DNA of 64,000 nucleotides, taken from sequence record MK962753.1. One strand, given 5' to 3'. Both the position numbers and the translations under genes were made by a program. The notes below the pieces were generated by a model that was not told the DNA's origin, searched no databases, and was given only the letters and a program-made list of their open reading frames with translations. Positions 24,506 through 39,158 of the stretch are shown here, piece by piece (position 1 is the stretch's first letter; the number at the start of each line of letters is the position of its first letter). This DNA comes from Shigella phage JK32.

Positions 24506-26000
24506 CGAATACCTCTTTTACTGTATTTGCAGTGGTCTTGTCGTAGCGAATACGTTTGATGATCGGGAGAAATAAAGAGAACTCCGGTTCATCTTCTTTA
24601 CGTGATTTGCTGCGGATATACCCGTTGCATGTCATCTCAATGACTTTTCCAATCAGGTTATGACGGTCAGCCCATAACATTTCTCGGTCAAGTTCATTTC
24701 GACGATCGAACGGAATTACACGTTCGATACCATCATCACCTTTTTCGGTTGTAGTGTCGGTTAATCCCGATCCGGTGTTAGTCATCATTCGTCCACACGC
24801 ACTACGGACAGTAAAACCGCCTACCTTATTGGGGTCTTTACTATGCGGATATACATCAACAATTTCCGCGTCGAAGTCAATCACTTCTTTAAATTTAACC
24901 TGATCTTTACTACGGCGATCTTCAAATACACCATGCAGATTTTTAAGGATAATACCTTCTAAGCCCATGTTTACATAGCGATGATATACTTCGCGAGCTT
25001 CATCGATATTGTTAACTACAGTATTTTCGATTATCTGAACACGAGGATCGTTAAGTTCTTCAACAATCTGTTTTAGTTCTTCGAATCGATCTTTATATTG
25101 CTTCGTTGCTTTCTCGTTTCCGTAATACACATCACGGTCGATAACATCCCAGACAGTGTAAACAATACATTGGGCTTCTTCTTTTGGAATAGTTCCTTTC
25201 AGTGATTTGTTGAGGATACCATTTCCGGTCTGACGATCTGCAACAACGGATTCTTTCACTGCTTCCGCTACTGGCGTTAATGGCATTTCCTCTTCTTCAA
25301 ATATCCATGACAGAGTACCATCATAAACGCTCTCAACGAAGTTCTGCGCTGGTGTTTGCGAAAGGGTAGGCATATATACCAATTCGCCATCTAGAACAAT
25401 TCCACGGCCTCGTAGACGCTCTAAAACCGCAAACAAATCATCAAGCCCCTGATAGGTATTACCTGAACGGGTATAGATTGCTAATGTTTCCCCGTCAATA
25501 TCAGCCATACCACGAGCGCCATCGCTTTTAAGTTGTGCATATGCAGGATATTTGATATTAGCAATGGCCTTATCAGAATATGACGATGCAAGGTGGCACG
25601 GCTGCTGGGGGATCAGTTTCTTCCATACCTTGTTTGCAGTGGTAGCGGAACAACCGCATTCCAGATCACGATTCAGGACCATCATTGCAACTTTAGCATC
25701 ATCTTCTGACAAGCAAGTCAGAGTATCGGTAACTAGCTGTAATGCTGCATTACCAGTTACTTGACGCGTGGCAAGTTTATTTTTAAAGACCTGTAATGCA
25801 CCGGATAAAGACAATACAGACGAATAACGCGATGGTTTATCGTATTTCTTTACGCCAAACGTAACCTGTTTGCAATATGCCAGATAAAAGCATTCTTTCA
25901 GCGTTTCATTGCTTGCAGATTCTTTCAGAATCTTTTCTTTCAGCGATGTTTTGTCTGTTGCTGCAAGCTGATTAATGATATTAAGAATTGACATTTTCAC
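24498..26000 (-). CDS. 30: ATP-dependent DNA ligase gp30
   Basis: 500 aa (T4 487 aa); adenylation motif KSDGAR; position after alt region as in T4. Confidence 0.9.
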   Translation of the reverse strand: MKMSILNIINQLAATDKTSLKEKILKESASNETLKECFYLAYCKQVTFGVKKYDKPSRYSSVLSLSGALQVFKNKLATRQVTGNAALQLVTDTLTCLSEDDAKVAMMVLNRDLECGCSATTANKVWKKLIPQQPCHLASSYSDKAIANIKYPAYAQLKSDGARGMADIDGETLAIYTRSGNTYQGLDDLFAVLERLRGRGIVLDGELVYMPTLSQTPAQNFVESVYDGTLSWIFEEEEMPLTPVAEAVKESVVADRQTGNGILNKSLKGTIPKEEAQCIVYTVWDVIDRDVYYGNEKATKQYKDRFEELKQIVEELNDPRVQIIENTVVNNIDEAREVYHRYVNMGLEGIILKNLHGVFEDRRSKDQVKFKEVIDFDAEIVDVYPHSKDPNKVGGFTVRSACGRMMTNTGSGLTDTTTEKGDDGIERVIPFDRRNELDREMLWADRHNLIGKVIEMTCNGYIRSKSRKEDEPEFSLFLPIIKRIRYDKTTANTVKEVFDV

Positions 26001-26460
26001 CTCGTTTTGTTAAACGTTCACGAATATCATTGAGGATACTACAAAATTCCGATTCGGTCAATATGGTCTTTAACGGATCTGATCCACCTATGCTATGACG
26101 TAATTTCTTATTTCCGGTAGCGAGTAATGCTTTACAAAATTCTGGGTTATTCCGTGCCATCGTAACAAATGCCAGATGTACCAGTCTGTAATAATGCTCA
26201 CTCATTCGATGAATCTGGCGACCCTGAAAATATAACATGTGATTCTCAACCTTTTCAGTCCTTCCGGTTCTTTTTGCTTTGCCACCGTGCATCAAAAAGA
26301 TTTCTCTTTGTCTCTGAGGGTTCTTAAATCTTAGACCCTGTAAAAATCCTTCTGTGCTGTTAATATCGCAACCAAATAGACGGAATGGTCTTTTATTGAA
26401 GTTGCTCAATTCACCCGATGGATAAGGTCCACCCGCATAGATATCAATTTCAGAAGTCAT
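25981..26460 (-). CDS. NADAR-domain (YbiA/DUF1768-like) protein, putative ADP-ribose-processing enzyme
   Basis: 159 aa; N-terminal GGPYPSGELSNF ... FRLFG ... STEGFLQGLRF resembles NADAR signature; 3' end overlaps ligase start by 20 nt. Confidence 0.65.
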   Translation of the reverse strand: MTSEIDIYAGGPYPSGELSNFNKRPFRLFGCDINSTEGFLQGLRFKNPQRQREIFLMHGGKAKRTGRTEKVENHMLYFQGRQIHRMSEHYYRLVHLAFVTMARNNPEFCKALLATGNKKLRHSIGGSDPLKTILTESEFCSILNDIRERLTKRGENVNS

Positions 26461-26614
26461 TGAAACTAATCTCGCTAATCAGAGAGAACGGATCATAATC
26501 GTCATTAGGAATATCGATAGTAATCGAGTGAGGATTTACCCATACACCAAACTGGTCTTCTTCGGTGAATACTTCGGTATGGATTTCGTGGATGTTTACA
26601 TTCATAGTTTTCAT
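26450..26614 (-). CDS. hypothetical small protein (54 aa, below track cutoff)
   Basis: Hand-translated ORF starting MKTMNVNIHEIH; SD AAGGAA; 3' end overlaps NADAR start. Confidence 0.35.
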   Translation of the reverse strand: MKTMNVNIHEIHTEVFTEEDQFGVWVNPHSITIDIPNDDYDPFSLISEISFNDF

Positions 26615-26656
26615 AATAAAATTCCTTAATAATCAATAACTTACAAAATCATATAG

Positions 26657-26685
26657 CCAAAATATAGGCGGGATTATTTCCCGCC
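26657..26685 (-). terminator. rho-independent terminator after gene 31
   Basis: GGCGGGAAATAATCCCGCC hairpin then T-rich run on minus. Confidence 0.55.
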
Positions 26686-26695
26686 GTTTAAATCA

Positions 26696-27019
26696 TTAAC
26701 CGTAAACTACCACAATATTCTGTTTGTGTGTTACAGTCCATTTCAGGTCGATCTCTTCTTCCTTCTTAACGCCGTTAATAACGTCTGGATGAGGAACTTT
26801 ATTAAGTTTCCCATGAGGAAGCAATACAGTCTTGCCCAGCAATTCTTTATCTACAGTTTCACCAATATCAATAATCTTACCTACCAGCGGAATCTCGCCC
26901 ATAGTGCGCTTTTGCTCAATAATGATCCCCATAGAGCTTTTTACTTCGGTCCCTGCGCTTTCTGCTTTAGCTTCGATAATTACATAATCACCAAGTGCTT
27001 TAGGAGTTTTAACGGTCAT
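26696..27019 (-). CDS. 31: co-chaperonin gp31 (GroES analogue)
   Basis: 107 aa; resembles remembered T4 gp31 including NKVPHP motif. Confidence 0.8.
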   Translation of the reverse strand: MTVKTPKALGDYVIIEAKAESAGTEVKSSMGIIIEQKRTMGEIPLVGKIIDIGETVDKELLGKTVLLPHGKLNKVPHPDVINGVKKEEEIDLKWTVTHKQNIVVVYG

Positions 27020-27060
27020 AATTTTATTACCTCTTCAAATCAATACAGTTTAATGATGAA

Positions 27061-27381
27061 TTATTTATAAATTTCGACGATCTGCGCTGGAGTCAGCCCG
27101 TCTACATTAATCAGACTATCAAGCCCAAAACTACGGAAACCTTCAACTGCAATTTCATATACTGGCAAAGATGTTTCTGATTCTTTACGCGGTTTTTCAA
27201 CATTCGGAACTAACCACTTTTCGTATGTTTCAAACGGCATCAGTGCCGGATCTCTCGTAGCGATCATCTCGCGGACAGTACCATCTTTCTTAGTAAACTG
27301 CAAAGAGTGAGTACCGACCGAAAACATTTTCTTTAGTGCTTCACGAAGTGCGATATTATCAATTTGTTCGGTCATTATCAA
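27061..27381 (-). CDS. hypothetical protein (106 aa)
   Basis: ORF between cd and 31. Confidence 0.55.
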   Translation of the reverse strand: MIMTEQIDNIALREALKKMFSVGTHSLQFTKKDGTVREMIATRDPALMPFETYEKWLVPNVEKPRKESETSLPVYEIAVEGFRSFGLDSLINVDGLTPAQIVEIYK

Positions 27382-27874
27382 TACCCTTCAAATCAGTCAA
27401 TAATGCTTTTGGAATACGCGTGATCGTAATATCTGCATTATTAAGAATATCAGCCCAATCACGCCCACCATTTCGATCATATGTGTCGCAATAGTATAGA
27501 TGTTTAATTCCACTGTTTGCAATTGCTTTAGCGCAATCTGGACACGGTGAAGCAGTACACCACATACTAGCACCTTCAATCGATACACCGCTACGGGCAG
27601 CAAACAAAATAGCATTTAATTCAGCATGGATCTCGTTTTTCTGTGACCATGCACTATGTTCTGGTCGTTTTTCTGGGATCATTTTGCCGTCATCATCCAG
27701 CCAACCGCTTTTATGTGCATGACAGCTACAATTTACTTGCCCTGCTGGAGTGCCGTTAAATCCAGTAGAAATGATTCGCCCGTCTTTTTCAATTAGTGCG
27801 CCTACCTTCCACGAAACGCATTTAGAGTTCTTTGCGATTAGATAGGCGATCTGCATGTAAGTTTGTGACAACAT
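27359..27874 (-). CDS. cd: dCMP deaminase
   Basis: 171 aa; zinc-binding deaminase motifs HAELNAI and PCPDCAK. Confidence 0.9.
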   Translation of the reverse strand: MLSQTYMQIAYLIAKNSKCVSWKVGALIEKDGRIISTGFNGTPAGQVNCSCHAHKSGWLDDDGKMIPEKRPEHSAWSQKNEIHAELNAILFAARSGVSIEGASMWCTASPCPDCAKAIANSGIKHLYYCDTYDRNGGRDWADILNNADITITRIPKALLTDLKGIDNDRTN

Positions 27875-27895
27875 AATATAATCCTCACATATTAA

Positions 27896-28099
27896 TTAAC
27901 CGTATACGCGAAAGTATTCTACTGATCCGTCGCTATACTGTTTTACATTGAATGTATTCACACCATGATCATTGCTCATAATGACATATACACTACGACG
28001 CTCATCACCAAACGGGTTAACTGGTGCGGGTTCAATTTCAACATTAAAACCACGTTTAGCAAGTGCTTCGCCTAATTGCTTGAGTTTATCGGTAAACAT
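27896..28099 (-). CDS. hypothetical small protein (67 aa)
   Basis: ORF abutting pseT stop. Confidence 0.5.
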   Translation of the reverse strand: MFTDKLKQLGEALAKRGFNVEIEPAPVNPFGDERRSVYVIMSNDHGVNTFNVKQYSDGSVEYFRVYG

Positions 28100-28998
28100 T
28101 AAAAGTCTCCGTAGTTAACCTGAAAACATTCTACACCAATTGATCGGTACATGTCAACCACTTGATCACGGTCATCTACTGCCAACACAACATGATAACG
28201 CGGTGCAATTTCAGAGAAGAAAATCTCTTTCTTCACTTCATGATCAGGACGACGATCATTAGTTTCACGTTGAAAGTGATCACTAGGTTCGATACCTTGT
28301 TCACGCAACCATTGCAGCGTATCTTCCTCGCAAACATCCTCACGTCCTGAGCACGTAATGATACGATAGCCATTATCACGATACAGTTTAAGCATTTCGA
28401 TCACTTGCGGACGCGGTTTATCTTCTTTGACCTTTGTCCAGTCAAACGGATGACGACCGCCCTTATCCGCTAATGTTCCATCAATATCAAAGATCACTGC
28501 CTTCGGCAGCATGGTATTCGGTTTGTATACTTCTTGACCCATATATTCCTGCATCAGATAAAATTGGTTACGCAAATGAGAAAGTGGAATTGCTTTCTCG
28601 CCGCGATAGAAATTACGTTTCTTTAGTGTCTCAAATGATTCATTGAACACCTGTTCAGTATACACCGCGTTAAATTCTTTTGCAAGTTCTTTGTAGAATA
28701 CACGATGTTTTTCTTTCAGGTTAGTATCAGAGACAATGATACTCAATCCGCGTGATAGAGTCTCACGAGCAATCATTCTCTGAATAGACTCTACCAGCTT
28801 TTCTTTTTCCTTAGTATACTTGTATTTCAAAAGTGAGTCAACACCAAACAACATAAGACGAAGATCATCGCGATTCACATTACGATAATTACTAAACCGT
28901 TTACATGTTTCCATAGCCCATGTAGTTTTACCAGACCCAGAACAACCAACGGTTAAAATCACTTCACATTTCGGCATTATTTCTCCTTCGGTTTGCAC
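28099..28998 (-). CDS. pseT: polynucleotide 5'-kinase / 3'-phosphatase
   Basis: 299 aa; P-loop GCSGSGKT at N-terminus and HAD-type DIDGT phosphatase motif; matches T4 PseT architecture. Confidence 0.9.
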   Translation of the reverse strand: MQTEGEIMPKCEVILTVGCSGSGKTTWAMETCKRFSNYRNVNRDDLRLMLFGVDSLLKYKYTKEKEKLVESIQRMIARETLSRGLSIIVSDTNLKEKHRVFYKELAKEFNAVYTEQVFNESFETLKKRNFYRGEKAIPLSHLRNQFYLMQEYMGQEVYKPNTMLPKAVIFDIDGTLADKGGRHPFDWTKVKEDKPRPQVIEMLKLYRDNGYRIITCSGREDVCEEDTLQWLREQGIEPSDHFQRETNDRRPDHEVKKEIFFSEIAPRYHVVLAVDDRDQVVDMYRSIGVECFQVNYGDF

Positions 28999-29429
28999 CG
29001 TTCCTCATTAAGTTCTTTGCGATAATAACACATGATCAACTTACTTTCAAGTGTATATCTCTTGATATCCGCAAGCCAGACTCTGAATTTTTGGGAGTCC
29101 TCCCACGACATAGAAACTCTAGGTTTACCGTCTATTGTATCCACTTTCAGGTCAATGTCAACTTTTTCTATTGGTGCTGGTAGTGGAGGATGTAATTTCG
29201 GTTCCTGTGAATAATGGTCCATTGTACACGAAGAAAGAGCAAATACAATAGGTACAGCGAAGACATGGATTATGGCGGTCTGAAAATTCTTATGTGCTTT
29301 CTTAAACATCCAGTGTATCACGAAAATTGAAAACACCATCAGGATAATAATGCTTGCACCTATCCCCAGATAATCAACCAGATTAAAATTGCTTATCTGC
29401 TCTTGCGTAGGCAATATTTCTATGCTCAT
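28977..29429 (-). CDS. hypothetical membrane protein (two predicted TM segments)
   Basis: 150 aa with hydrophobic stretches; ATGA coupling to upstream gene. Confidence 0.55.
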   Translation of the reverse strand: MSIEILPTQEQISNFNLVDYLGIGASIIILMVFSIFVIHWMFKKAHKNFQTAIIHVFAVPIVFALSSCTMDHYSQEPKLHPPLPAPIEKVDIDLKVDTIDGKPRVSMSWEDSQKFRVWLADIKRYTLESKLIMCYYRKELNEERCKPKEK

Positions 29430-29749
29430 TTAGTAGCCTCCTTTAATTCTTCGGTAAACTCCTTAAATGAATCATTAAGCTGTTTCTCTACCAACTTGGG
29501 TTTTTGTGCTACTACATAGCCTCGTGTAGCGTCTTTCATTGCTTTGTTTTGTTCTTCGGCAAACTTAGTTCTTATTCCGTACATCTCCTTTTGTAGCGAG
29601 TCTACAATCTTCATCTTCTCATCTGTCTTTTTCTTATACTCTGTAAATTCCTGATTCAGTCGATCTACCTCCTTTTTATTTTCCCACCACATATTGCCAC
29701 CTATCCCCAACAACACAGATATGATAACAATGTATATCAGCTTTGACAT
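29426..29749 (-). CDS. hypothetical membrane-anchored coiled-coil protein
   Basis: ATG at 29749 (MSKLIYIVIISVLLGIGG, N-terminal TM) followed by Lys/Glu-rich helix. Confidence 0.55.
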   Translation of the reverse strand: MSKLIYIVIISVLLGIGGNMWWENKKEVDRLNQEFTEYKKKTDEKMKIVDSLQKEMYGIRTKFAEEQNKAMKDATRGYVVAQKPKLVEKQLNDSFKEFTEELKEATK

Positions 29750-29764
29750 ATTACCCCCAACGAC

Positions 29765-29789
29765 AAAAGGCGGGGAACTAGCCCCGCTT
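29765..29789 (-). terminator. rho-independent terminator
   Basis: GCGGGGCTAGTTCCCCGCC hairpin then TTTTG on minus. Confidence 0.55.
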
Positions 29790-29793
29790 ATTA

Positions 29794-30963
29794 TTACCAA
29801 TCAATCTTATCAGCCGGAATTAGTTTCTTATAATTCCGTAGATAGTAAGTTTTCATTGAAGCCAGAATACGGTCATAATCAAGACCATCAAATGCAATCA
29901 TCAGACACATGAAAATATATGCTTGTGCATCACCATGTTTACGTGATTCGATAGTCGCATTGGATGCATATGTCTTTCTGTCTTCTCCCGCGTGTGCGTT
30001 ATAAAATTCTGTTGCTGTCGTGAAGGCATTGCGAAGAATAGACCTGAATGCTTCCTCGAATAGCTCGATTCGTTCCAGTGCTTCCGGTTCGCCTTCATAT
30101 GCAGCACGCAAATCATCGGTTTCACTTTCTACGACATAGTAGATCAGGTTATTAGGAAACATCGATGTGTTTTTAATGTTATGCACACCAATATACCATT
30201 CACTCTTCACCTTGAACATTTGACCGTCTTTAGTGCGTGCAACAATTCCTTCGATACCTTCTGCGGTCCGAACTTCATCAAGAATATTGCTAAAACGCGC
30301 TGAATCAACCTGTAACGCATTTACCAGATGAGGACGTAGGATTGCATCAGCAAATAGCATTTGATGCGGTACATACTCTCCTGTGACGTTATGGCGTACA
30401 TTCAGAAGTGTTAGCGACGGTTCAGAATATTCTACAACAATTCGGTTGCTGGGTGCTGTATATTCAAAGTTGAAAGTATAATCAGACCCGATATCGGCGA
30501 TCTTAGCGCGTAGATCCGCATACTTCTCTGAATACAGAAGACCGTTTGCTCTCTCCGCTTGGCTTGAGTACAAGGCCGCTTTAGACTTCAACTGAACATA
30601 GCCGTTATCAATGTATGTGCTTACTAGACTACCGTCCATTTTGTCCATGACCATTTCCACATCTTCCGGCTTAAAGCGAGAGCGTTCATTCTCACCTAAA
30701 TTAAAAAACTTCTCCATAGGACGAGATGCAATGCGGACAGGTCGGTCTTTATCATCGATTTCAAACATGATCCCGCGACACTCTAACGCATCTGGTTTAT
30801 TCCACATTTCCGGTTTGCTCAAGTACAAATAACTAAAAATGCGCATACGGGTTTGCATCGCCGTAATTTCATCTTTGTAATAGAACGTATCAGATCCGTC
30901 ACATAGTGTCATCAGATTTTTGAACAATGCTAAAACTTTTTTGTTGTTTTCTTTTGTTGACAT
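29794..30963 (-). CDS. rnlA: RNA ligase 1
   Basis: 389 aa; ligase motif KMDGSL and LECRGIMFE block as in T4 RnlA. Confidence 0.85.
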   Translation of the reverse strand: MSTKENNKKVLALFKNLMTLCDGSDTFYYKDEITAMQTRMRIFSYLYLSKPEMWNKPDALECRGIMFEIDDKDRPVRIASRPMEKFFNLGENERSRFKPEDVEMVMDKMDGSLVSTYIDNGYVQLKSKAALYSSQAERANGLLYSEKYADLRAKIADIGSDYTFNFEYTAPSNRIVVEYSEPSLTLLNVRHNVTGEYVPHQMLFADAILRPHLVNALQVDSARFSNILDEVRTAEGIEGIVARTKDGQMFKVKSEWYIGVHNIKNTSMFPNNLIYYVVESETDDLRAAYEGEPEALERIELFEEAFRSILRNAFTTATEFYNAHAGEDRKTYASNATIESRKHGDAQAYIFMCLMIAFDGLDYDRILASMKTYYLRNYKKLIPADKIDW

Positions 30964-31360
30964 AATTTGTGTTCCATTCTGGTTTAAATTTGGTGATCAA
31001 AACAGGTTCTTCGATATCGGCAGTGCTTATAATATCTTTACCCGTTGGATTCTCTATGTACAACTCAAAGCACTGGCGGTAATAGAATGTTACTGTCTTC
31101 CCTTCCTCTAGCGCCTTATGAATATTCTTACTCTTGCGAGTATCCGCCGTTGGTGTCTGTCTGTTAATGCTAGTCCGGTAATAGTTGATCCGCTTTCTGA
31201 GATTAACAGTCTGACCAATGTATACCAGTTCATCATCAACCGCAATAGCGTAAAGAACATTTAAACGGTTCTTCTGAGGCGGTAGAATCACATCACCATC
31301 TTTACACTCTAAACATGAATATTTAACGAATCCATAGTTTTCTATTAGCTCATTAATCAT
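30899..31360 (-). CDS. denA: endonuclease II (GIY-YIG family)
   Basis: Strong match to remembered T4 DenA (NVLYAIAVDDELVYIGQTVNLRKRINYYRT); SD GAGGAAAGGA. Confidence 0.85.
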   Translation of the reverse strand: MINELIENYGFVKYSCLECKDGDVILPPQKNRLNVLYAIAVDDELVYIGQTVNLRKRINYYRTSINRQTPTADTRKSKNIHKALEEGKTVTFYYRQCFELYIENPTGKDIISTADIEEPVLITKFKPEWNTNYVNKRKQQKSFSIVQKSDDTM

Positions 31361-31380
31361 TATCCTTTCCTCACGTCACA

Positions 31381-31403
31381 ACAAAGGCGGGATTTCTCCC
31401 GCC
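31381..31403 (-). terminator. rho-independent terminator
   Basis: GGCGGGAGAAATCCCGCC hairpin then TTTGTTG on minus. Confidence 0.55.
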
Positions 31404-31410
31404 CACCTTA

Positions 31411-31809
31411 TTAACTTTCCAGAATATCGCGAGCTTCGTTACGCTCCTTGATGATTTTCAGGACAAATTCCAGTTTTTCTTTGTTCAGTGTTCCGTTTTC
31501 CATTGCTTCTTTGACGGTAAGCACTCCGCCACCTTGCCCGTATACAGTGACAGTGATTTCACCTAACATCGTGGTATGAAAACCGCCAATTTTCGGTGAT
31601 TCGAAAGAAACAATCACCTCACGGATAGTATTGCCATCGTTGATTTCTTCCAGCGTAATATCGCTTTTGTAAGCGGTTGCTTTAACCATACGGATCAGCA
31701 TAGTCTGATCTGGGGAGATGGTCATTTTGTCCATTGCATGTTGCAATGCAGCGTAACCGAAAACTTTAACGAAGTCCAGAACGTCTTTGCGAGTTTGAAA
31801 TTTAATCAT
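31411..31809 (-). CDS. hypothetical protein (132 aa)
   Basis: SD AAGGAG; early promoter upstream. Confidence 0.6.
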   Translation of the reverse strand: MIKFQTRKDVLDFVKVFGYAALQHAMDKMTISPDQTMLIRMVKATAYKSDITLEEINDGNTIREVIVSFESPKIGGFHTTMLGEITVTVYGQGGGVLTVKEAMENGTLNKEKLEFVLKIIKERNEARDILES

Positions 31810-31850
31810 CTTGATACTCCTTAGTAAGTTAGTTTCGTTTCGATGGGGGT

Positions 31851-31879
31851 ATATTACTACCCCCGTTTCAGGCTGTCAA
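31851..31879 (-). promoter_or_regulatory. early promoter with inverted repeat around -10
   Basis: TTGACA, 17 nt, TAATAT; GGGGGTA ... TACCCCC inverted repeat. Confidence 0.6.
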
Positions 31880-32101
31880 CTACTTTTTAATGACAAGTTC
31901 GAATTTTGCTACCTTACGTCCTCGTTTATTGAAAGCAACCCACGGACGGTTTTCAATGTAGAACAATTCTTCACCAATAATGAATACTGGCTGATTGTAA
32001 AGGCGACCCATCAGGTCACGCTGGCGAATGGTAGTAGATTCGTATACTTCGCCTACTACAAAGTGTTTGCTGATAGAGTCGGTGCAGATAAATTTCATTT
32101 T
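31880..32101 (-). CDS. hypothetical small protein (73 aa), MK-x2-C family
   Basis: ATG at 32101 with SD GGAGAATC; paralogous to 34471..34638 and 59493..59699. Confidence 0.55.
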   Translation of the reverse strand, partial: KMKFICTDSISKHFVVGEVYESTTIRQRDLMGRLYNQPVFIIGEELFYIENRPWVAFNKRGRKVAKFELVIKK

Positions 32102-32126
32102 GATTCTCCTTTGTTTCGATGGGGGT

Positions 32127-32155
32127 ATATTACTACCCCCGCTATTCAGTGTCAA
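32127..32155 (-). promoter_or_regulatory. early promoter with inverted repeat around -10
   Basis: TTGACA, 17 nt, TAATAT; near-duplicate of promoter at 31851..31879. Confidence 0.6.
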
Positions 32156-32162
32156 CTACTTT

Positions 32163-32381
32163 TTACTTGTTGTATTCATTCCACCATTGGGTTAGCTTAT
32201 CAATTATTTTTGTGTTTCTATCCAACTTCTCCCACCGTTTTCGAGGGTTTATCAACCGGAATAGGTAAGGTGTACTTGTTAAGTGAACTCGGTCAATGTA
32301 GTGATTGATGTACTGCTTTTCAATTCTAAGTTTCATCTTTTTACGATGAAAATATGCAATGACTTGTTCTTCTGTTTCCAT
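32163..32381 (-). CDS. hypothetical small basic protein (72 aa)
   Basis: SD GGAGGA. Confidence 0.55.
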   Translation of the reverse strand: METEEQVIAYFHRKKMKLRIEKQYINHYIDRVHLTSTPYLFRLINPRKRWEKLDRNTKIIDKLTQWWNEYNK

Positions 32382-32405
32382 ATGTTCCTCCGTTTCGATG
32401 TGCGT

Positions 32406-32434
32406 ATTATGCTATGGTAAGATCCGATTGTCAA
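32406..32434 (-). promoter_or_regulatory. early promoter
   Basis: TTGACA, 17 nt, CATAAT. Confidence 0.65.
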
Positions 32435-32444
32435 CACCCAATAA

Positions 32445-32470
32445 CAAAAAAGTCGCCACTATGGGCGACT
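32445..32470 (-). terminator. rho-independent terminator
   Basis: AGTCGCCCATAGTGGCGACT hairpin then U6 on minus. Confidence 0.65.
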
Positions 32471-32481
32471 TTGAACAAACA

Positions 32482-32958
32482 TTAATCATGACCGTGATTT
32501 GCAATATCCGCTCGCGTCTTGTCTTTGTGATTTCCTACGTCAAAGACACGATAGCCGTTTTCTCTAAGAACTTTAATCACTTCTGGGTTATCCTCAAAGA
32601 CTCCGACAACTTCATCTTTATCAAAGGATTTAATTACCTCTAATTTGATGTGATAGTCTTTACGGGAATCGGTACGGCCTCTCATAAAGATTTTATCAAA
32701 ACACACTCCGTTAGAAATTAACCAATCAATTGTTTCCATGTAAGCATGTGAACTTCGTCCGGTGAGGATGTAAATCAAATGACCGTTGTCAGAAAGAGCA
32801 TTGATAACACGAATTACATCGTAAATGGGGGAATCTCCCCCACATGCCTTGTTATATTCGATCCATGACTCGACTTTATCAAGATTTTCGGTTGGCATCT
32901 TTGCTAGTCGATGCGTTGGATCTGTGATCGTAAAATCTAAATCGACAAAATATATCAT
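32482..32958 (-). CDS. HAD-superfamily phosphatase-like protein
   Basis: 158 aa; DLDFT motif I, LTGR motif II, Lys and FEDNPE motifs; ATGA coupling to nrdB. Confidence 0.55.
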   Translation of the reverse strand: MIYFVDLDFTITDPTHRLAKMPTENLDKVESWIEYNKACGGDSPIYDVIRVINALSDNGHLIYILTGRSSHAYMETIDWLISNGVCFDKIFMRGRTDSRKDYHIKLEVIKSFDKDEVVGVFEDNPEVIKVLRENGYRVFDVGNHKDKTRADIANHGHD

Positions 32959-34115
32959 AGATATTTCCCGAATCGGTTGTAGTCGTCGTCTGTTAAATCG
33001 GTATTAACCTGAGATACCAGATACATAATCTCTACTTCTTGCGCCGCGTTTTGAACTTCGTCAGAGTTCAACCATTTACGCATCCACGGTAAAGGATGAC
33101 GACGAACACTAAACGGGCTTTTCAGTCCGGCAGCACGCATACGGGAATCTGCCAGGTATTCTACATAGGTTTTCAGAATTTCCGGTGACAGGTTAGGAAT
33201 TGCCCCCATTGCGAATAGGTGGTCTACCCATTCTTTTTCTTGCTCGACAACATCCAGAAAGATTTTCGTTGCTTCGTCTTCAAGTTCTTCCGCAATCTGT
33301 TTCCACTCATCACCGTCAGCCCCCGTTTGCCATTGACGAATAATGTATTGTGTGCCTTTTAAGTGAAGTTGTTCATCACGCGCAATAAATTTCATGATCT
33401 TCGCGTTACCTTCCAGTAAACCACGTTCGGCAAAGCTGAAAGTACATGCAAAGGACACATAAAAACGGATTGCTTCCAAAGCATTAACGCAGTGTGCACA
33501 CAGATAAATCGACGCCATCAGATCTCGTTTTGTATCTTCAAAAAATCTTCTTGCATCATCTAATGCTGTCTGGTCTTCTCGGTCTTCCCAATAGCGGAGA
33601 TCTTCTTTTGCATTCTCATACTTACGAATCCAATAAAGAACATCATCATAATATTGCCCGATAGATTCCGCTCGCTTCATGATAGCAGGGTTATCGATGA
33701 TCTGGTCAAACTCACTAGCCGGATCAATGAAACAGTTACGCATAATGTGAGTATAACTGCGGCTATGAATTGTCTCGCTGAATGTCCATGTTTGCAACCA
33801 TGTATCGAGAGTCGGATCAGATACAATTGGACCAAATGCTGCGGACGGTGCGCGACCTTGAATAGAATCAAGTAATGTCTGATACTTCAAGTTTTCTGTA
33901 AAGAAACGTTTTTCAACATCGCCCATATTAAGATATTGAATACGGTCGGTTGCAAGTGAAATCTCTTCTGGACGCCAGAAAAATGACAGAGATTTTTCAA
34001 TTAATTCTTCAAATACTTGATGACGCTGAATATCATAGCGAGCGATACCCAACCCACTACCCAGAAACATTGGTTCGTTCATAATATCAACATGTTCGCG
34101 GTTAAATACGCTCAT
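32955..34115 (-). CDS. nrdB: ribonucleotide reductase small subunit
   Basis: 386 aa; diiron/tyrosyl-radical R2 fold features; SD GAGGTGA. Confidence 0.9.
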   Translation of the reverse strand: MSVFNREHVDIMNEPMFLGSGLGIARYDIQRHQVFEELIEKSLSFFWRPEEISLATDRIQYLNMGDVEKRFFTENLKYQTLLDSIQGRAPSAAFGPIVSDPTLDTWLQTWTFSETIHSRSYTHIMRNCFIDPASEFDQIIDNPAIMKRAESIGQYYDDVLYWIRKYENAKEDLRYWEDREDQTALDDARRFFEDTKRDLMASIYLCAHCVNALEAIRFYVSFACTFSFAERGLLEGNAKIMKFIARDEQLHLKGTQYIIRQWQTGADGDEWKQIAEELEDEATKIFLDVVEQEKEWVDHLFAMGAIPNLSPEILKTYVEYLADSRMRAAGLKSPFSVRRHPLPWMRKWLNSDEVQNAAQEVEIMYLVSQVNTDLTDDDYNRFGKYL

Positions 34116-34130
34116 TAATTCACCTCACTA

Positions 34131-34298
34131 TCACTTTTTAACACAAAAGAACTTAGTATTTCTGTTTATTTCTCTATCCTGTTGCAATTCCTGCATGGCT
34201 TCAAAACAACTTTGATGTGATGAAAACTCTACGCTGGTAACAGTTCCTTTATTATATACCCCGACACTAACGGAAAGCAATAACCATAATGTAGCCAT
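34131..34298 (-). CDS. hypothetical small protein (55 aa, below track cutoff), tandem paralog 1
   Basis: Hand-translated, starts MATLWLLLSVSVGVYNKG; start overlaps stop of upstream paralog (TAATGGCTAC junction). Confidence 0.4.
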   Translation of the reverse strand: MATLWLLLSVSVGVYNKGTVTSVEFSSHQSCFEAMQELQQDREINRNTKFFCVKK

Positions 34299-34471
34299 TA
34301 GTTCACCTTCTGCTTTTCAATGCAATACAGATTCATAAAGCGTTTATTGTCTTCGCGGATAATCTCGCGAGCTTTAACGCAATCCTGCTTTGTTGCAAAT
34401 TCAATGCTTGACATGTTTCCGTAATTATACATTGAATTGCTTATTGCAATCAATAACCATACAGTAGCCAT
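34298..34471 (-). CDS. hypothetical small protein (57 aa, below track cutoff), tandem paralog 2
   Basis: Hand-translated, starts MATVWLLIAISNSMYNYG; same TAATGGCTAC junction. Confidence 0.4.
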   Translation of the reverse strand: MATVWLLIAISNSMYNYGNMSSIEFATKQDCVKAREIIREDNKRFMNLYCIEKQKVN

Positions 34472-34638
34472 TATCCGACAACCTCAAAACATTTATCATC
34501 AGGAAGAATAGCCCATTCTACGCCGTATTCATCCTCAACGTAGTAGCAAGTCCCATCATGTCGAGCATCATATACATCACCGACAACAAAGCTATCAGCT
34601 AGCTCAAAATCTACAGCAACACATTTTAATTTTGCCAT
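34471..34638 (-). CDS. hypothetical small protein (55 aa), MK-x2-C family
   Basis: ATG at 34638 with SD GAGGA. Confidence 0.5.
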   Translation of the reverse strand: MAKLKCVAVDFELADSFVVGDVYDARHDGTCYYVEDEYGVEWAILPDDKCFEVVG

Positions 34639-34669
34639 AATAAAATCCTCATTTGTTTTTGATGGTTGT

Positions 34670-34698
34670 ATTATAGCGGGGATTTCTCCCCGCGTCAA
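34670..34698 (-). promoter_or_regulatory. early promoter with palindromic spacer
   Basis: TTGACG, spacer CGGGGAGAAATCCCCGC, TATAAT. Confidence 0.65.
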
Positions 34699-34706
34699 CA
34701 CTTATT

Positions 34707-36950
34707 TTACAGTTTGCAAGATGAACATTCGCTAGCGTCTTCCGTACCATCAGCACCATCACGCACGTTAGCGTAATACAGTGTCTTGAGACCGTAATAT
34801 TGAGCAAACAACATATCATCTAATACATCAGCAATATCGACTTTACCAGTCTTATAAGTGCTTGGATCGTAGGATGTATTGGAACTAATCGCCTGATCTA
34901 CAAACTTCTGCATGATCGCTGCCAGTGTCAGATAAGGCTTGTTACCTTTCTTGATCAGTGTCCAAAGCAGGTCAATAACATCAGCATTATTCTCTACGTT
35001 CGGAATAACCTGATTAAATTGCCCTTCTTTCGATCCTTTAACCGATACAATCCCGCGAGGCGGTTCAATACCGTTTGTGCTGTTAGACACCTGAGAAGAC
35101 GACTCACAAGGCATCAGAGCCGAAAGCGTACTGTTACGAATGCCATATTTTTTCAGGTCTTCGCGCAGTTCTTCCCAATCCATCTCATACACCGGATCAA
35201 CCAGTTCATCTACTGTCTTTTTGTACCAGTCGATAGGCAGTTCACCGCGACCATAACGTGTTTCGTGCATCAGTTCGCAAGCACCCTTCTCTTTAGCCAG
35301 TTGCACACTAGCCTTAATCAGAGCATATTGCAAGCGTTCAAACGTTTTATGCGTAAACTCGTTAGCGTCTTCATATGTGAAGAAATTATCCGCCAGATAC
35401 GATGCAAAGTTAGTCACGCCAACACCCAGAGAGCGACGTTTTTTGGCTGTCAGAGCTTGTTCTACAGGATAATCCTGATAATCTAACAGGTTGTCAAGTG
35501 CACGCACCATAACCATAGCAATGCGTTCTACTTCTTCCATGTTTTCGATATCGAAATTACCTAAAACATATGCTGCCAAAGTACATAGGCTGATCTCTGA
35601 ATCATCACGCCCCATTGGTTTAGTAGGCAGTGCAATTTCGCAACACAGGTTAGATTGTTTAATCGGTGCTACATTGCGAATAAACGCCCCGTGATTGTTC
35701 ATGTTGTCTGTGAATGCTGGATAGATTCGACCAGTGTTAAAACGTTCAATCGCCACCGCTAAAAATAGGTCTTCGGCTTTAACACGAGTTTTACGAACAC
35801 TCGGATCTTTTTCCAGTTTTTCGTAAAGCTGGCGGAAACCTTCCTCATCTCGGAAGTACAGATCCCACAACAAGCCACCCGCAACATCTGGACTAAACAG
35901 AGTAATGTAATCCCGTTTAAGGAATCGCTCTACCATCAGGTTATTAATCTGTACGCCGTAATCAAGATGACGAATGCGGTTATCTTCTACCCCTTTGTTA
36001 TTCTTCAACACAATAAGACTTTCAAATTCTAAATGCCACATTGGGTAATAGAGAGTCGCTGCCCCGCCACGAATACCGCCTTGTGAGCATGACTTAACGG
36101 CAGTCTGAAAATGTTTCCAGAATGGGATAACGCCAGTATGACGAACTTCACCATGCCCGATCTTAGATCCTTCCGCGCGAATCATGCCAGCGTTGATACC
36201 GATACCAGCACGCTTGCTAATATACTTGATGATTGCATTTGCGGTTTCATTAATACCCTGCAATGAATCATCAGATTCGATCACCACACACGAACTAAAT
36301 TGTCGTGTTGGAGTACGCACACCCGCCATAATCGGAGTAGGCAGAGAGATTTGCTTATTCGCAACAGCATTATAAAAATCAATCACATGTTCAAGTCGAT
36401 TTTCTGTCTCTTCTTGATGTAAGCACATACCGATCAACATATACGCAAATTGCGGTGTTTCAATGATTTTCTTAGTGCTGCGATCCTGAACAAGATATTT
36501 CTCTTTTAACTGCATCGCACCCGCATAGGTCATTTTAAAATCAAGTTTATGGTCGATAAATTTCTCCAAATATTCCACTTCTTCACGGGAATACTTTTGC
36601 AGAATTTCACGATCATATTTTCCGGTTGCAATATTACGCTCAATATGGCTGTAAAAATCACTCGGTTGGAATTGACCGTATACTGATTTACGAAGCGCGA
36701 ACATTGCAAGGTTACTTGCTACATATTGATAATCAGGAGTTTCTACAGTGATGTTATCTGCGGCGACCTTAATCAATACTTTCTGGATATCATTGGTAGA
36801 CATACCTTCTGTCAGAAGTGGTTCAACCATATCAAACAATTCATATGGATCAACGTTATGACCTTCGGCTGCCGCTTCCAAAATTTTCATTACTTTTTCT
36901 TTTTCAAACGGAACAGTCAGACCGGAAGACTTAACAACATTTTTAATCAT
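34707..36950 (-). CDS. nrdA: ribonucleotide reductase large subunit
   Basis: 747 aa; N-terminal ATP-cone and catalytic Cys-containing blocks (NLCCEI, PCESS) typical of class Ia R1. Confidence 0.9.
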   Translation of the reverse strand: MIKNVVKSSGLTVPFEKEKVMKILEAAAEGHNVDPYELFDMVEPLLTEGMSTNDIQKVLIKVAADNITVETPDYQYVASNLAMFALRKSVYGQFQPSDFYSHIERNIATGKYDREILQKYSREEVEYLEKFIDHKLDFKMTYAGAMQLKEKYLVQDRSTKKIIETPQFAYMLIGMCLHQEETENRLEHVIDFYNAVANKQISLPTPIMAGVRTPTRQFSSCVVIESDDSLQGINETANAIIKYISKRAGIGINAGMIRAEGSKIGHGEVRHTGVIPFWKHFQTAVKSCSQGGIRGGAATLYYPMWHLEFESLIVLKNNKGVEDNRIRHLDYGVQINNLMVERFLKRDYITLFSPDVAGGLLWDLYFRDEEGFRQLYEKLEKDPSVRKTRVKAEDLFLAVAIERFNTGRIYPAFTDNMNNHGAFIRNVAPIKQSNLCCEIALPTKPMGRDDSEISLCTLAAYVLGNFDIENMEEVERIAMVMVRALDNLLDYQDYPVEQALTAKKRRSLGVGVTNFASYLADNFFTYEDANEFTHKTFERLQYALIKASVQLAKEKGACELMHETRYGRGELPIDWYKKTVDELVDPVYEMDWEELREDLKKYGIRNSTLSALMPCESSSQVSNSTNGIEPPRGIVSVKGSKEGQFNQVIPNVENNADVIDLLWTLIKKGNKPYLTLAAIMQKFVDQAISSNTSYDPSTYKTGKVDIADVLDDMLFAQYYGLKTLYYANVRDGADGTEDASECSSCKL

Positions 36951-37018
36951 ATTACCTCACTTCATATTTTAGCAGGAACAAGTTTATCCTCCATATTGGG
37001 GGCTTTCGCCCCCTTTGT

Positions 37019-38239
37019 TTATACTGCCATTTGAGCGGTGATCGCTGGATGGCTTTGATAGTTGTGAATTTTAAAGTCTTTCGGAGTCTTTGTCAATACC
37101 TCATCTAAAGACTTAAATTCCGGCAACTCAATTGTTGGTTTATCAAACGGAACACGGTTTAATTGTTCCATAACTTGATCAAAGTGGTTTTTGTAAATGT
37201 GAGTATCTCCACCAGAGAAAATCAGTTCTCCTACCTCAAGATCACACATTTTCGCTATGATGTGGGTTAAAAGTGCATAGCTGGCAACATTAAAGGGCAA
37301 GCCCAAAAAGCTGTCTACGCTTCTCTGAAACCACATACAAGACAGTTTACCTTCATTGACGTAGAATTGCACGAAAGGATGACATACACCTAACACAGCA
37401 TTATGTGTTCCTTGTACGTTCCATGAGTCAATAATGATCCGGCGATCCGTTGGATTGTTTTTAATTTGTTCAATCACGTTTTGTAACTGGTCTTCCCAAA
37501 TCTTCGGTCGATAGATATATTCTTCATCGTCTTTAGGGCTTGATGTGTCTACGTCCATATTAACAAAGATCGTGGTATCCGGTGCGAACATATCCCCACC
37601 CAGATAATCACTATCAAGCAGATAACCGAAATAACCATCATCTACCCATTCCTGGAATCCCCACAAGCAATATGCATCATTAACAAAATTAGATTGAGTC
37701 TTCCAGTGGTCTGCTACCAGAATATAATCAAACTCTTCATAACGCATACCACGCCAGATAGCACATAAACGGTCTTCTGTGTCATTGGTTGGCGTAAAGT
37801 CTTCTACCCACGGGTGCTTAAATGTATGTGTATATTTGCTCTTAACGCGCTTAATTTTGATTTCACCGTGTGGATGAATCGGTTTGCGTCGCCAAGCCAT
37901 ACCATACATATTGCCGACATTATAACCATTGAATCGCAAAGGATTCTTTTCTTTCATATCAAGACAGTTGCCGCGCCAAATGTCGAAGGCTTCTTCGTCA
38001 AACTTACCGCGTGTAATTTCCTGTAAGCGACGGCGGTCAAGTGATCCCTCCATAAACCATAGCAACTCGCCAATTACAGAGGCTGTAGCCATCTTTTTAG
38101 TGGTCAGTAAGGGGAAACCCTTGCTTAAATCGATTCGCATCTCTGCGCCGAATTTAGAGAGCGTACCTACCCCCGTGCGGTCTTCACGAGGCCAGCCATT
38201 ATCAAGAACATCACGCAACAGTTTCAAATATTCTTTCAT
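37019..38239 (-). CDS. td: thymidylate synthase with ~120-aa internal insertion
   Basis: N-terminal RTGTGT and C-terminal catalytic blocks conserved; 406 aa versus 286 aa in T4; insertion after the YG-x-WR block. Confidence 0.85.
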   Translation of the reverse strand: MKEYLKLLRDVLDNGWPREDRTGVGTLSKFGAEMRIDLSKGFPLLTTKKMATASVIGELLWFMEGSLDRRRLQEITRGKFDEEAFDIWRGNCLDMKEKNPLRFNGYNVGNMYGMAWRRKPIHPHGEIKIKRVKSKYTHTFKHPWVEDFTPTNDTEDRLCAIWRGMRYEEFDYILVADHWKTQSNFVNDAYCLWGFQEWVDDGYFGYLLDSDYLGGDMFAPDTTIFVNMDVDTSSPKDDEEYIYRPKIWEDQLQNVIEQIKNNPTDRRIIIDSWNVQGTHNAVLGVCHPFVQFYVNEGKLSCMWFQRSVDSFLGLPFNVASYALLTHIIAKMCDLEVGELIFSGGDTHIYKNHFDQVMEQLNRVPFDKPTIELPEFKSLDEVLTKTPKDFKIHNYQSHPAITAQMAV

Positions 38240-38480: not shown

Positions 38481-38572
38481 TATTGTTCCCGTCCGCAATG
38501 TAAACACCGACTACCAGCAAACATCAAAGATTCACCACAATGTTTGCACTCATAATCTGTCAGAATTTTCAT
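38480..38572 (-). CDS. putative 30-aa zinc-ribbon micro-protein
   Basis: Hand-translated MKILTDYECKHCGESLMFAGSRCLHCGREQ; SD AAGGTG 5 nt upstream; TAATG coupling to next gene. Confidence 0.3.
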   Translation of the reverse strand: MKILTDYECKHCGESLMFAGSRCLHCGREQ

Positions 38573-38573
38573 G

Positions 38574-39143: not shown

Positions 39144-39158
39144 AATATAAATCTCCCA

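What the first reader, a model, noticed from the sequence alone, without database searches (positions are those of the whole stretch)
31880..32101. Dispersed small-protein family (MK-x2-C ... VAKFE) present at three loci
ORFs at 31880..32101 (MKFICTDS...VAKFELVIKK), 34471..34638 (MAKLKCVAVDFE...CFEVVG) and 59493..59699 (MKVRCIETDH...VAKFEIIE) share N-terminal M-K-h-x-C and downstream hydrophobic/aromatic patterning, each directly behind an early promoter cassette. Copies far apart fit cassette-mediated gene spreading.
Basis: seen in the sequence. Interest (0 to 1): 0.4.

Follow-up and report, generated by a model that had tools for sequence, protein, structure and literature searches.

The report
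Small beta-barrel accessory genes between promoter cassettes
Three tiny early genes of an RB49-like coliphage are distant relatives within a small beta-barrel domain superfamily shared with T1-like phages. They sit between the promoter cassettes already known to shuffle such genes, so this is a tidy but fairly ordinary case of phage accessory-gene mosaicism.

Summary
The window is a Krischvirus (RB49-like) genome, about 96-97% identical to RB49, ECD7 and SSG23. All three ORFs are real, lie on the minus strand, and follow sigma-70-type early promoters.

- **A (31880..32098) and C (59493..59699)** are true homologues. Smith-Waterman z is 9.5, with 0 of 2000 shuffles as good. An independent HMM built from metagenomic intermediates hits both, at E 5e-15 and 3e-10.
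- **B (34471..34638)** belongs to a sister family. It joins A and C only through the N-terminal hairpin (K-x-x-C ... F-x-x-G-x-x-Y) and through bridging proteins of T1-like phages.

They are not recent copies. They share no coding DNA similarity, and C (61% to Tunavirus) and B each have closer relatives in Drexlerviridae than within this genome.

C is present in only 13 of about 58 krischviruses. Its insertion/deletion junction lies inside the promoter/RBS cassette, as the published PeSL shuffling model predicts.

Function remains unknown. My best guess is small SH3-like binding modules for host takeover or counter-defence.

The parts
31880..32098 (-). Gene A, 72 aa (MKFICTDS...VAKFELVIKK). 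It is the orthologue of RB49p227 and belongs to phrog_14957.
   Evidence: ORF and sequence. PHROG match E 4e-54. Present in 56 krischvirus records at 95-100% aa identity and in no other phage group in the collection. Hit at E 4.8e-15 by an HMM built only from metagenomic intermediates.
32099..32155 (-). PeSL cassette upstream of A. It comprises -35 TTGACA (32155..32150), the hairpin GGGGGTAGTAATATACCCCC (32140..32121) enclosing -10 TAATAT (32132..32127), and SD AGGAG.
   Evidence: Hairpin dG is about -14 kcal/mol. Architecture matches Arbiol et al. 2010 (PMC2839356).
31810..31879 (-). PeSL cassette downstream of A, driving ORF 31411..31809. It is chimeric relative to RB49, which has PeSL-ORF226-PeSL here.
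   Evidence: Alignment with RB49. Promoter scan.
34471..34638 (-). Gene B, 55 aa (MAKLKCVAVDFELADSFVVGDVYDA...CFEVVG). It is the orthologue of RB49p233 and belongs to phrog_16302. It is a sister family to the Drexlerviridae phrog_11551 proteins.
   Evidence: An HMM built from T1-like B-like proteins only hits it at E 2.9e-7. Smith-Waterman z is 8.9 and 8.7 against PaulSarasin bas09_0074 and GH-K3 gp70.
34639..34698 (-). PeSL cassette upstream of B: TTGACG, hairpin GGGGAGAAATCCCC in the spacer, TATAAT, and an SD.
   Evidence: dG -19; 11 of 12 consensus matches.
59493..59699 (-). Gene C, 68 aa (MKVRCIETDH...VAKFEIIE), phrog_9122. It is a variable accessory gene, present in 13 of about 58 krischviruses. 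Its closest outside relatives are in Tunavirus and Webervirus.
   Evidence: AlphaFold model pLDDT 94, six strands.
59700..59800 (-). Intrinsic terminator (59800..59778) followed by a plain sigma-70 promoter, TTGACT-17-CATAAT (59759..59731), and an SD upstream of C. There is no hairpin within the promoter.
   Evidence: (dG -3.4). A terminator is also annotated in phage G2494.
59427..59486 (-). PeSL cassette downstream of C, driving ORF 59154..59426. It is lost together with C in krischviruses that lack C.
32482..32958 (-). Context gene: a stand-alone HAD-type 3'-phosphatase, annotated in relatives as 'polynucleotide kinase'. Its Drexlerviridae homologues carry or directly precede a B-like domain.
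   Evidence: 44% identity to herni gp39, E 5e-42. phrog_415. Fusions and adjacency.

Best explanation
A, B and C are three anciently diverged members of a superfamily of small (55-72 aa) all-beta, SH3-like barrel domains. The superfamily is common among early accessory genes of enterobacterial phages.

- A and C belong to one sequence family (phrog_14957 and phrog_9122).
- B belongs to a sister family (phrog_16302 and phrog_11551).
- The two families share the N-terminal hairpin (K-x-x-C strand, loop, F-x-h-G-x-x-Y strand).

Each gene is a separately transcribed single-gene module between sigma-70 early promoter/terminator cassettes (PeSLs). Such modules are gained and lost by recombination within the conserved -10-to-RBS part of the cassettes. 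This explains why C is present in only some krischviruses. The gene pool is shared horizontally with T1-like siphophages (Drexlerviridae).

**Shown:** homology, distribution, junction positions and predicted fold.

**Inferred:** the proteins act as small binding modules early in infection.
- For A and C, the inferred role is host-takeover or defence-related binding, by structural analogy to Gp54 of Bas11.
- For B, the inferred role is as an accessory or targeting domain working with the phage HAD 3'-phosphatase, based on the Rosetta-stone fusion seen in Drexlerviridae.
For: **Window identity**
- The window is a krischvirus.

**A-C homology**
- Smith-Waterman z is 9.5, with 0 of 2000 shuffles as good.
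- Reciprocal full-length PHROG cross-hits.
- The profile search of 1.84 billion proteins returns only 13 representatives. These include the intermediates P0029, P0031 and P0035.
- An HMM built from those three alone hits A at 4.8e-15 and C at 3.2e-10.
- P0035 matches both krischvirus A and Webervirus C-like genes in tblastn.
- The BFVD model of the RB49 A orthologue matches the C model at TM 0.73, E 4e-4.

**B family**
- z is 8.9 and 8.7 against PaulSarasin bas09_0074 and GH-K3 gp70.
- A T1-only HMM hits B at 2.9e-7 and ranks C second of 980 ORFs.

**Link between the two families**
- hhalign gives E 1.3e-4, with 1 of 300 column shuffles as good.
- Shfl1p16 is hit on the same residues by both HMMs, at 7.4e-7 and 5.8e-8, with 0 of 2000 shuffles as good.
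- The atuna/herni gp37-like ORF is hit by both HMMs.

**Mobility**
- The indel junctions lie inside the cassettes, matching PMC2839356.
- C occurs in 13 of about 58 krischviruses, and at 61% and 43% identity in Tunavirus and Webervirus.

**Fold**
- The C model has pLDDT 94 and six strands with a long beta1-beta2 loop.

**Phosphatase link**
- An in-frame phosphatase::B-like fusion occurs in at least 20 Drexlerviridae genomes.
- The B-like gene directly follows the phosphatase in atuna, PaulSarasin and SECphi27.
Against: - There are no functional data for any member. Every database name is 'hypothetical protein'.
- The B to A/C link is weak on direct tests. B-C shuffles give 68 of 2000, hhalign probability is only 54%, and the A/C profile did not retrieve B from the 1.84-billion-protein library.
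- The C model did not hit the RB49 B orthologue in BFVD.
- The single-sequence model of B is unusable, at pLDDT 53.
- There is no sequence similarity to Gp54.
- In this window B is 1.5 kb from the phosphatase, with nrdB between them, so the Rosetta-stone inference may not carry over.
- C's promoter is not a compact PeSL.
Confidence: 0.6

Rival explanations
1. One ancestral gene was duplicated within the krischvirus genome, and copies were moved to distant sites by PeSL cassettes or mini-circles. On this view A, B and C are intragenomic paralogues.
For: - The three are related.
- All sit next to cassettes, and PeSL recombination is documented at two of the loci.
- PeSL mini-circles were proposed as vehicles for such movement.
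Against: - There is no coding DNA similarity among the three genes, and amino-acid identity is 25% or less.
- C is 61% identical to Tunavirus proteins but only about 22% to A.
- B is closer to Drexlerviridae proteins than to A or C.
- The B-like and C-like genes are already separate and adjacent in Shfl1, so the split predates the krischvirus lineage.
- C is absent from most krischviruses.
Confidence: 0.08
2. Only A and C are related. B is an unrelated small beta protein whose N-terminal K-x-x-C ... F-V-V-G-x-V-Y resemblance to A arose by convergence or chance.
For: - B-C alignment is marginal, at 68 of 2000 shuffles.
- B's homologues in T1-like phages lack the Cys.
- The A/C profile does not retrieve B.
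- No PHROG cross-hit links B to phrog_9122 or phrog_14957.
- B appears to have five strands against six for C.
Against: - A-B shuffles give 1 of 2000.
- hhalign gives E 1.3e-4, beaten by 1 of 300 column shuffles.
- The B-like HMM ranks C second of 980 ORFs.
- Shfl1p16 and the atuna/herni gp37-like ORFs are each hit significantly by both family HMMs on overlapping residues, with 0 of 2000 shuffles as good.
- B alone hits the atuna/herni gp37-like ORFs at E 0.005-0.008. Those ORFs align over their full length to the A/C profile.
Confidence: 0.22
3. The shared N-terminus reflects the cassette rather than protein homology. On this view the conserved 3' end of the cassette extends into the first codons, or strong translation-initiation constraints impose 'MK...'.
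For: - An ATG-AAA start is common behind these cassettes.
- The cassette DNA is the only nucleotide similarity between the loci.
Against: - Similarity extends through the whole protein for A and C.
- The codons differ: TGC versus TGT, and different residues at positions 3-4.
- Homologues in T1-like phages lie outside the krischvirus cassette context yet keep MKLRC...G.EY...VA.F.
- Other cassette-driven ORFs in the window lack the motif.
Confidence: 0.02

Closest known systems
PeSL-flanked ORFan modules of RB49/phi1 (Arbiol et al. 2010, PMC2839356; Comeau et al. 2014, PMC4122927)
   Same: - Same phage genus.
- Same cassette anatomy: an AT-rich region holding the upstream stop codon, sigma-70 -35 and -10 boxes, a G/C hairpin over or between the boxes, and an SD.
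- Single small ORFans sit between cassettes.
- Presence/absence differences between close relatives have junctions inside the cassettes.
   Different: - Those papers do not describe protein-family relationships among the ORFans, or their sharing with T1-like siphophages.
- C's upstream element is a separate terminator plus a plain promoter, not a compact PeSL.
Gp54 of Escherichia phage Bas11 (PDB 9AXB). A small protein that directly activates the CapRelSJ46 defence protein (PMC11578894).
   Same: - Both are proteins of about 65 aa forming a six-stranded beta-barrel with a prominent beta1-beta2 loop. That topology is called rare in the paper.
- Both have RecD SH3 as a weaker neighbour.
- Its Shfl1 homologue (Shfl1p02) lies about 1.5 kb upstream of the B-like and C-like genes in the same gene block. 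Gp54 itself is non-essential and of unknown function.
   Different: - There is no detectable sequence similarity.
- Foldseek did not recover it.
- Gp54 belongs to the Shfl1p02/TLS gp82-like family, which is a different gene.
- Trigger activity is highly sequence-specific even among Gp54 homologues, so no functional transfer is justified.
DUF7244 (Pfam PF23896, SH3 clan). The stand-alone SH3 protein of the Drexlerviridae lysis module (PMC13164509).
   Same: - Small stand-alone SH3-like barrel in enterobacterial phages.
- B gives a sub-threshold match (E 0.019, residues 1-42).
- A BFVD DUF7244 model is a weak neighbour of the C model (probability 0.95, TM 0.42-0.49).
   Different: - B scores 15.5 bits against a curated cutoff of 27.
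- DUF7244 genes sit beside the lysis cassette, not in early regions.
- A and C give no Pfam hit.
Drexlerviridae phrog_11551 proteins and the HAD 3'-phosphatase::B-like fusion ('polynucleotide kinase', e.g. herni gp39)
   Same: - B aligns over its full length, with F17, Y23, D36, G39, W42 and F51 invariant.
- The HMM hits B at E 2.9e-7.
- The window also encodes the homologous phosphatase, at 44% identity.
   Different: - In the window B is neither fused to nor adjacent to the phosphatase.
- B keeps an N-terminal Cys that the T1-like proteins lack.
- B is assigned to a separate PHROG.

Membership tests
A/C family (phrog_9122 + phrog_14957) | Full-length profile match | tested here: met
   C matches phrog_9122 at E 5.6e-18 and A matches phrog_14957 at E 4e-54, with reciprocal full-length cross-hits at E 0.006 and 0.069. 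An independent HMM of P0029, P0031 and P0035 hits A at 4.8e-15 and C at 3.2e-10, but B only at E 7.6.
A/C family (phrog_9122 + phrog_14957) | Conserved residues K2, C5, F44, A53, G58 and F64 (numbering of C), including the C-terminal V-A-x-F motif | tested here: met
   These residues are invariant across 25 sequences that include A and C. B lacks the C-terminal V-A-x-F block, so B is not a member of this family.
B family (phrog_16302 + Drexlerviridae phrog_11551) | Full-length similarity with the conserved F..G..Y ... D..G..W ... F-E pattern | tested here: met
   F17, Y23, D36, G39, W42 and F51 are invariant. The T1-only HMM hits B at E 2.9e-7. Smith-Waterman z is 8.9 and 8.7. Two T1-like members cross-hit phrog_16302.
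B family (phrog_16302 + Drexlerviridae phrog_11551) | Gene directly follows, or is fused to, the HAD 3'-phosphatase | tested here: not met
   In the window B (34471..34638) is separated from the phosphatase (32482..32958) by two small ORFs and nrdB. The adjacency or fusion is seen only in Drexlerviridae, and not in all of them (Shfl1 and GH-K3).
Superfamily joining A/C and B (N-terminal hairpin domain) | Profile-profile similarity, and bridging sequences hit by both family profiles on the same residues | tested here: met
   hhalign gives E 1.3e-4 and probability 54%, with 1 of 300 column shuffles as good. Shfl1p16 residues 90-116 and 84-127 are hit at 7.4e-7 and 5.8e-8. The atuna 88-384 ORF is hit at 0.0037 and 0.0065. 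In each case 0 of 2000 shuffles did as well. Support is moderate and confined to the N-terminal half.
Pfam DUF7244 (PF23896, SH3 clan) | Score at or above the curated gathering cutoff of 27 bits | tested here: not met
   B scores 15.5 bits, E 0.019. A and C give no hit.
Gp54(Bas11) family | Sequence homology to Gp54 / Shfl1p02 | tested here: not met
   Neither the A/C profile nor the B profile hits 9AXB. Smith-Waterman z is 1.1 or less. Shfl1p02 itself hits 9AXB at 1.2e-13.
Gp54(Bas11) family | Six-stranded small beta-barrel with a long beta1-beta2 loop | tested here: inconclusive
   [not shown]
Gp54(Bas11) family | Binds and activates CapRelSJ46 | not testable with these tools
   This needs co-expression toxicity or binding assays. 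[quoted passage not shown]
PeSL cassette (Arbiol et al. 2010) | Intergenic sigma-70 -35/-10 boxes, a stable stem-loop within or overlapping the promoter, and an SD directly upstream of the gene | tested here: met
   Met for A (dG -14, hairpin over the -10) and for B (dG -19, hairpin in the spacer). Only partly met for C, which has a promoter of 10 of 12 consensus matches with dG -3.4 and a separate upstream terminator.
PeSL cassette (Arbiol et al. 2010) | Insertion/deletion junctions between close relatives fall inside the cassettes | tested here: met
   C plus the downstream PeSL is absent in W115, with the junction between the -10 and the SD. RB49 ORF226 is absent from the window, which has a chimeric PeSL there.

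The most novel reading that the evidence does not exclude
The K-x-x-C / F-x-h-G-x-x-Y hairpin may mark a large, so far unnamed superfamily of SH3-like barrel domains in enterobacterial phage early regions. Observed forms are:
- stand-alone proteins (A, B, C, herni gp37, EB49 gp2, KP36 gp17);
- a tandem pair with a membrane anchor (T1 gp68-like Shfl1p16);
- a domain fused to a HAD 3'-phosphatase.

On this reading its members would be dedicated interactors of host defence or RNA-repair pathways. They would act as inhibitors, decoys or triggers in the manner of Gp54 and CapRel. The B-like domain would target the phosphatase to damaged or modified tRNA ends.
Probability: 0.15. Interest if true: 0.6.

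Novelty: new member of a known kind. Interest (0 to 1): 0.3.

Why it matters
This is a clean, checkable example of how T4-type phages stock their hyperplastic regions. Single-gene modules are drawn from a pool shared with unrelated siphophages and are inserted or removed at promoter cassettes.

It also joins four 'unknown function' PHROGs (14957, 9122, 16302, 11551) and several T1-like ORFs into one candidate domain superfamily.

Two testable functional leads follow:
- The predicted fold resembles a known trigger of a bacterial defence protein.
- One branch is fused to a 3'-phosphatase.

If either lead holds, these tiny genes become candidates in phage-host defence and counter-defence. If neither holds, they remain ordinary accessory ORFans.

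Tried and rejected
- **Single-sequence word-index searches.** For A and C these returned only near-identical clusters. An alignment query was needed to reach further.
- **Pfam.** No hit above cutoff for any of the three.
- **Sequence search of the PDB.** The A/C and B profiles found nothing meaningful. The lectin and sialidase hits are the common D-x-x-G-x-x-W beta-turn motif at E above 0.1.
- **Single-sequence AlphaFold of B.** pLDDT was 53, too low for a fold search.
- **Foldseek of the C model against the PDB.** No match below E = 1.
- **The afdb50 library.** Unavailable.
- **More paralogues in the window.** An HMM of A+B+C against all 980 stop-to-stop ORFs of at least 30 aa found none.
- **Nucleotide-level repeat between the genes.** Rejected. 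Only the cassettes match. A short identical GTAGCAAAATTYGAA encoding VAKFE is explained by protein conservation and codon bias.
- **Two giant proteins (P0034, P0036).** These were hit by the profile in five short stretches. I judged them to be repeat artefacts and did not pursue them.
- **PeSL papers.** They do not mention these ORFs, paralogy or siphophage sharing.

Full report
**Identity of the window.** The nrd region (31400-35000) and the region around 59000-60300 each match 58 phage records. All are RB49-like T4-type coliphages (genus Krischvirus), at 90-98% nucleotide identity. The best matches are SSG23 and SFHK24 at 97.6%, ECD7 at 97.0% and RB49 at 96.1%. Genes in both regions run on the minus strand.

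**The observation.** The three ORFs are real.
- A is 31880..32098, 72 aa.
- B is 34471..34638, 55 aa.
- C is 59493..59699, 68 aa.

In RB49, A is RB49p227 and B is RB49p233, both annotated 'hypothetical protein'. C has no RB49 counterpart.

Local alignment against 2000 shuffles gives the following:
- A-C: z 9.5, 0 of 2000 as good, full length.
- A-B: z 6.6, 1 of 2000, first 23 residues only.
- B-C: z 2.2, 68 of 2000.

Among 112 SD-preceded ORFs in the window, only these three carry the two N-terminal motifs. An HMM of the three finds no fourth member among 980 ORFs. The refutation criterion given with the finding (scores no better than shuffles) is therefore not met for A-C and A-B, and is nearly met for B-C.

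**A and C are one family.**
- PHROGs places A in phrog_14957 and C in phrog_9122, with reciprocal full-length cross-hits.
- An alignment-seeded search returned 27 relatives of C.
- A 25-sequence profile searched against 1.84 billion representative proteins found only 13 significant representatives. Among them are P0029, P0031 and P0035, whose sequences are visibly intermediate. For example, P0035 ends in RPFVAFGKTGKVVANFEIVVKG.
- An HMM built from those three alone, containing nothing from the window, hits A at 4.8e-15 and C at 3.2e-10 among the window's 980 ORFs.
- P0035 matches both krischvirus A genes and Webervirus C-like genes by tblastn.
- The independently predicted BFVD model of RB49's A orthologue matches my C model at TM 0.73.

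**B belongs to a sister family.** By tblastn, B occurs in all 58 krischviruses and otherwise gives only weak hits to Drexlerviridae. Those hits prove to be real.
- PaulSarasin bas09_0074 and GH-K3 gp70 align with B at z 8.9 and 8.7.
- Six residues are invariant across the family.
- An HMM made only from T1-like members hits B at 2.9e-7.

**Evidence linking B to A and C.**
- Direct evidence is modest. hhalign gives probability 54% and E 1.3e-4, with a score exceeded by 1 of 300 column-shuffled controls. The T1-only B-like HMM ranks C second of 980 ORFs.
- Bridging sequences give better evidence. In Shfl1, protein p16 (T1 gp68-like) has two tandem 'MKFEC...F-x-V-G-K-x-Y' domains and a C-terminal hydrophobic segment that I read as a membrane anchor. 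Both family HMMs hit it on overlapping residues, at 7.4e-7 and 5.8e-8, with 0 of 2000 shuffles as good.
- The atuna/herni gp37-like ORF is likewise hit by both HMMs, and by B alone at 0.005-0.008.
The Cys is not conserved in the T1-like B-like proteins.

**These are not copies that spread within the genome.** The three genes share no coding DNA similarity. Only their cassettes match, at about 80% over 74 nt.
- C is 61% identical to proteins of Tunavirus (Sfin-1, Shfl1) and 43% identical to those of Webervirus (KP36 and others). It is only about 22% identical to A.
- In Shfl1 the B-like gene (p09) lies immediately upstream of the C-like gene (p10). The two lineages were therefore already distinct in that gene pool.
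- C is present in only 13 of about 58 krischvirus records, whereas A is in 56 and B in 58.

**Cassettes and mobility.**
- A and B are preceded by typical PeSLs, meaning a sigma-70 promoter with a G/C hairpin over the -10 (A) or in the spacer (B).
- C is preceded by a terminator and then a plain promoter, and is followed by a PeSL.
- Such cassettes are frequent in the window: 22 on the minus strand.
- In W115, which lacks C, the same terminator and promoter directly drive the downstream gene. The junction lies between the -10 and the Shine-Dalgarno sequence.
- Downstream of A, RB49 has PeSL-ORF226-PeSL where the window has one chimeric PeSL.

This matches the modular shuffling described for RB49 and phi1 (PMC2839356). 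Those papers do not discuss these ORFs or any protein families.

**Fold and closest known structures.** With the 25-sequence alignment, C is predicted with pLDDT 94 as six beta-strands with a long beta1-beta2 loop.
- The Gp54 paper describes a rare six-stranded barrel with a prominent beta1-beta2 loop and names RecD SH3 as its nearest neighbour. It calls Gp54 a non-essential protein of unknown function that directly activates CapRelSJ46.
- By sequence, Gp54 belongs to the Shfl1p02 family. That is another small gene in the same Shfl1 gene block.
- Gp54 shows no sequence similarity to A, B or C, and Foldseek did not reproduce the match. The resemblance is therefore at fold level only.
- B gives a sub-threshold match to DUF7244, an SH3-clan family described as a stand-alone SH3 in Drexlerviridae.

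**Functional lead for B.** In PaulSarasin, atuna and SECphi27, the B-like gene directly follows a HAD-type 3'-phosphatase annotated 'polynucleotide kinase'. In herni and at least 20 further Drexlerviridae genomes, at 60-100% identity, it is fused in frame to the phosphatase C-terminus. The window encodes the homologous phosphatase at 32482..32958 (44% identity). It lies 1.5 kb downstream of B in the same orientation, with nrdB and two small ORFs between them.

**Verdict.**
Cassettes do mediate gain and loss here, but the three genes are ancient homologues drawn from a pool shared with T1-like phages, not dispersed copies.
- The mechanism I consider most likely is inference, not demonstration: small SH3-like binding modules expressed early, with A and C possibly defence-related and B possibly a phosphatase accessory domain.
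- Both the phenomenon (PeSL-flanked ORFans) and the genes (annotated as hypothetical since RB49 was sequenced) are already known. New here are the family links, the Drexlerviridae connection and the two functional leads.

Noticed in passing
window 34131..34298 (-) and 34298..34471 (-): Two tandem small ORFs (55 and 57 aa, beginning MATLWLL... and MATVWLL...) lie directly downstream of B. They are clear paralogues (z 23.8) and both belong to phrog_5579. They are homologous to PaulSarasin bas09_0070 (z about 7). In PaulSarasin, bas09_0070 lies within about 1.5 kb of the phosphatase and the B-like gene. This suggests a multi-gene neighbourhood shared between Krischvirus and Drexlerviridae.
   Followed up: partly
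window 31810..31879; L001 (RB49) 1981..2130: RB49 carries an extra 49-aa ORF (RB49p226) between two PeSLs downstream of A. The window lacks it and has a single chimeric PeSL in its place. The 5' half of that PeSL matches RB49's first cassette and the 3' half matches the second.
   Followed up: yes
window 32482..32958 (-): The gene annotated in relatives as 'polynucleotide kinase' or pseT_2 is only 158 aa. It corresponds to a stand-alone HAD 3'-phosphatase domain without a kinase domain, and is 44% identical to the Drexlerviridae enzyme.
   Followed up: partly
L004 (Shigella phage Shfl1) 4385..5023: Shfl1p16 (T1 gp68-like, 212 aa) contains two tandem copies of the MKFEC...F-x-V-G-K-x-Y domain. 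It ends in a hydrophobic, probably membrane-spanning segment (LSGLAIALVLLVASISLLFIM). The small domain therefore also occurs in an apparently membrane-anchored tandem form.
   Followed up: partly
L008 (phage herni) 949..1662, and about 20 other Drexlerviridae records: An in-frame fusion of the HAD phosphatase with a B-like C-terminal domain gives a 237-aa protein. Close relatives such as BEC3 and atuna have a stop codon between the two parts. The same pair therefore exists both as one gene and as two genes.
   Followed up: yes
Shigella phages SSG23 and SFHK24, region matching window 31400..35000: These closest relatives carry an annotated homing endonuclease within the nrdB-nrdA interval. The match spans 4310 bases against 3601 in the window. 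The window lacks this insertion.
   Followed up: no
window 14000..45000 and 56000..64000, minus strand: There are at least 22 promoter+SD cassettes on the minus strand; 13 of the 24 cassettes found on both strands have a hairpin of dG -10 kcal/mol or lower. Several fall into recognisable subclasses: a GGGAGTAGTAAnATACTCCC type and a GGGGATC...GATCCCC type.
   Followed up: partly
P0034 (2692 aa) and P0036 (1864 aa): The A/C profile hit two very large proteins in five short stretches each, corresponding to profile positions 21-43 and 41-65. These are probably repeat-driven artefacts, but I did not examine them.
   Followed up: no
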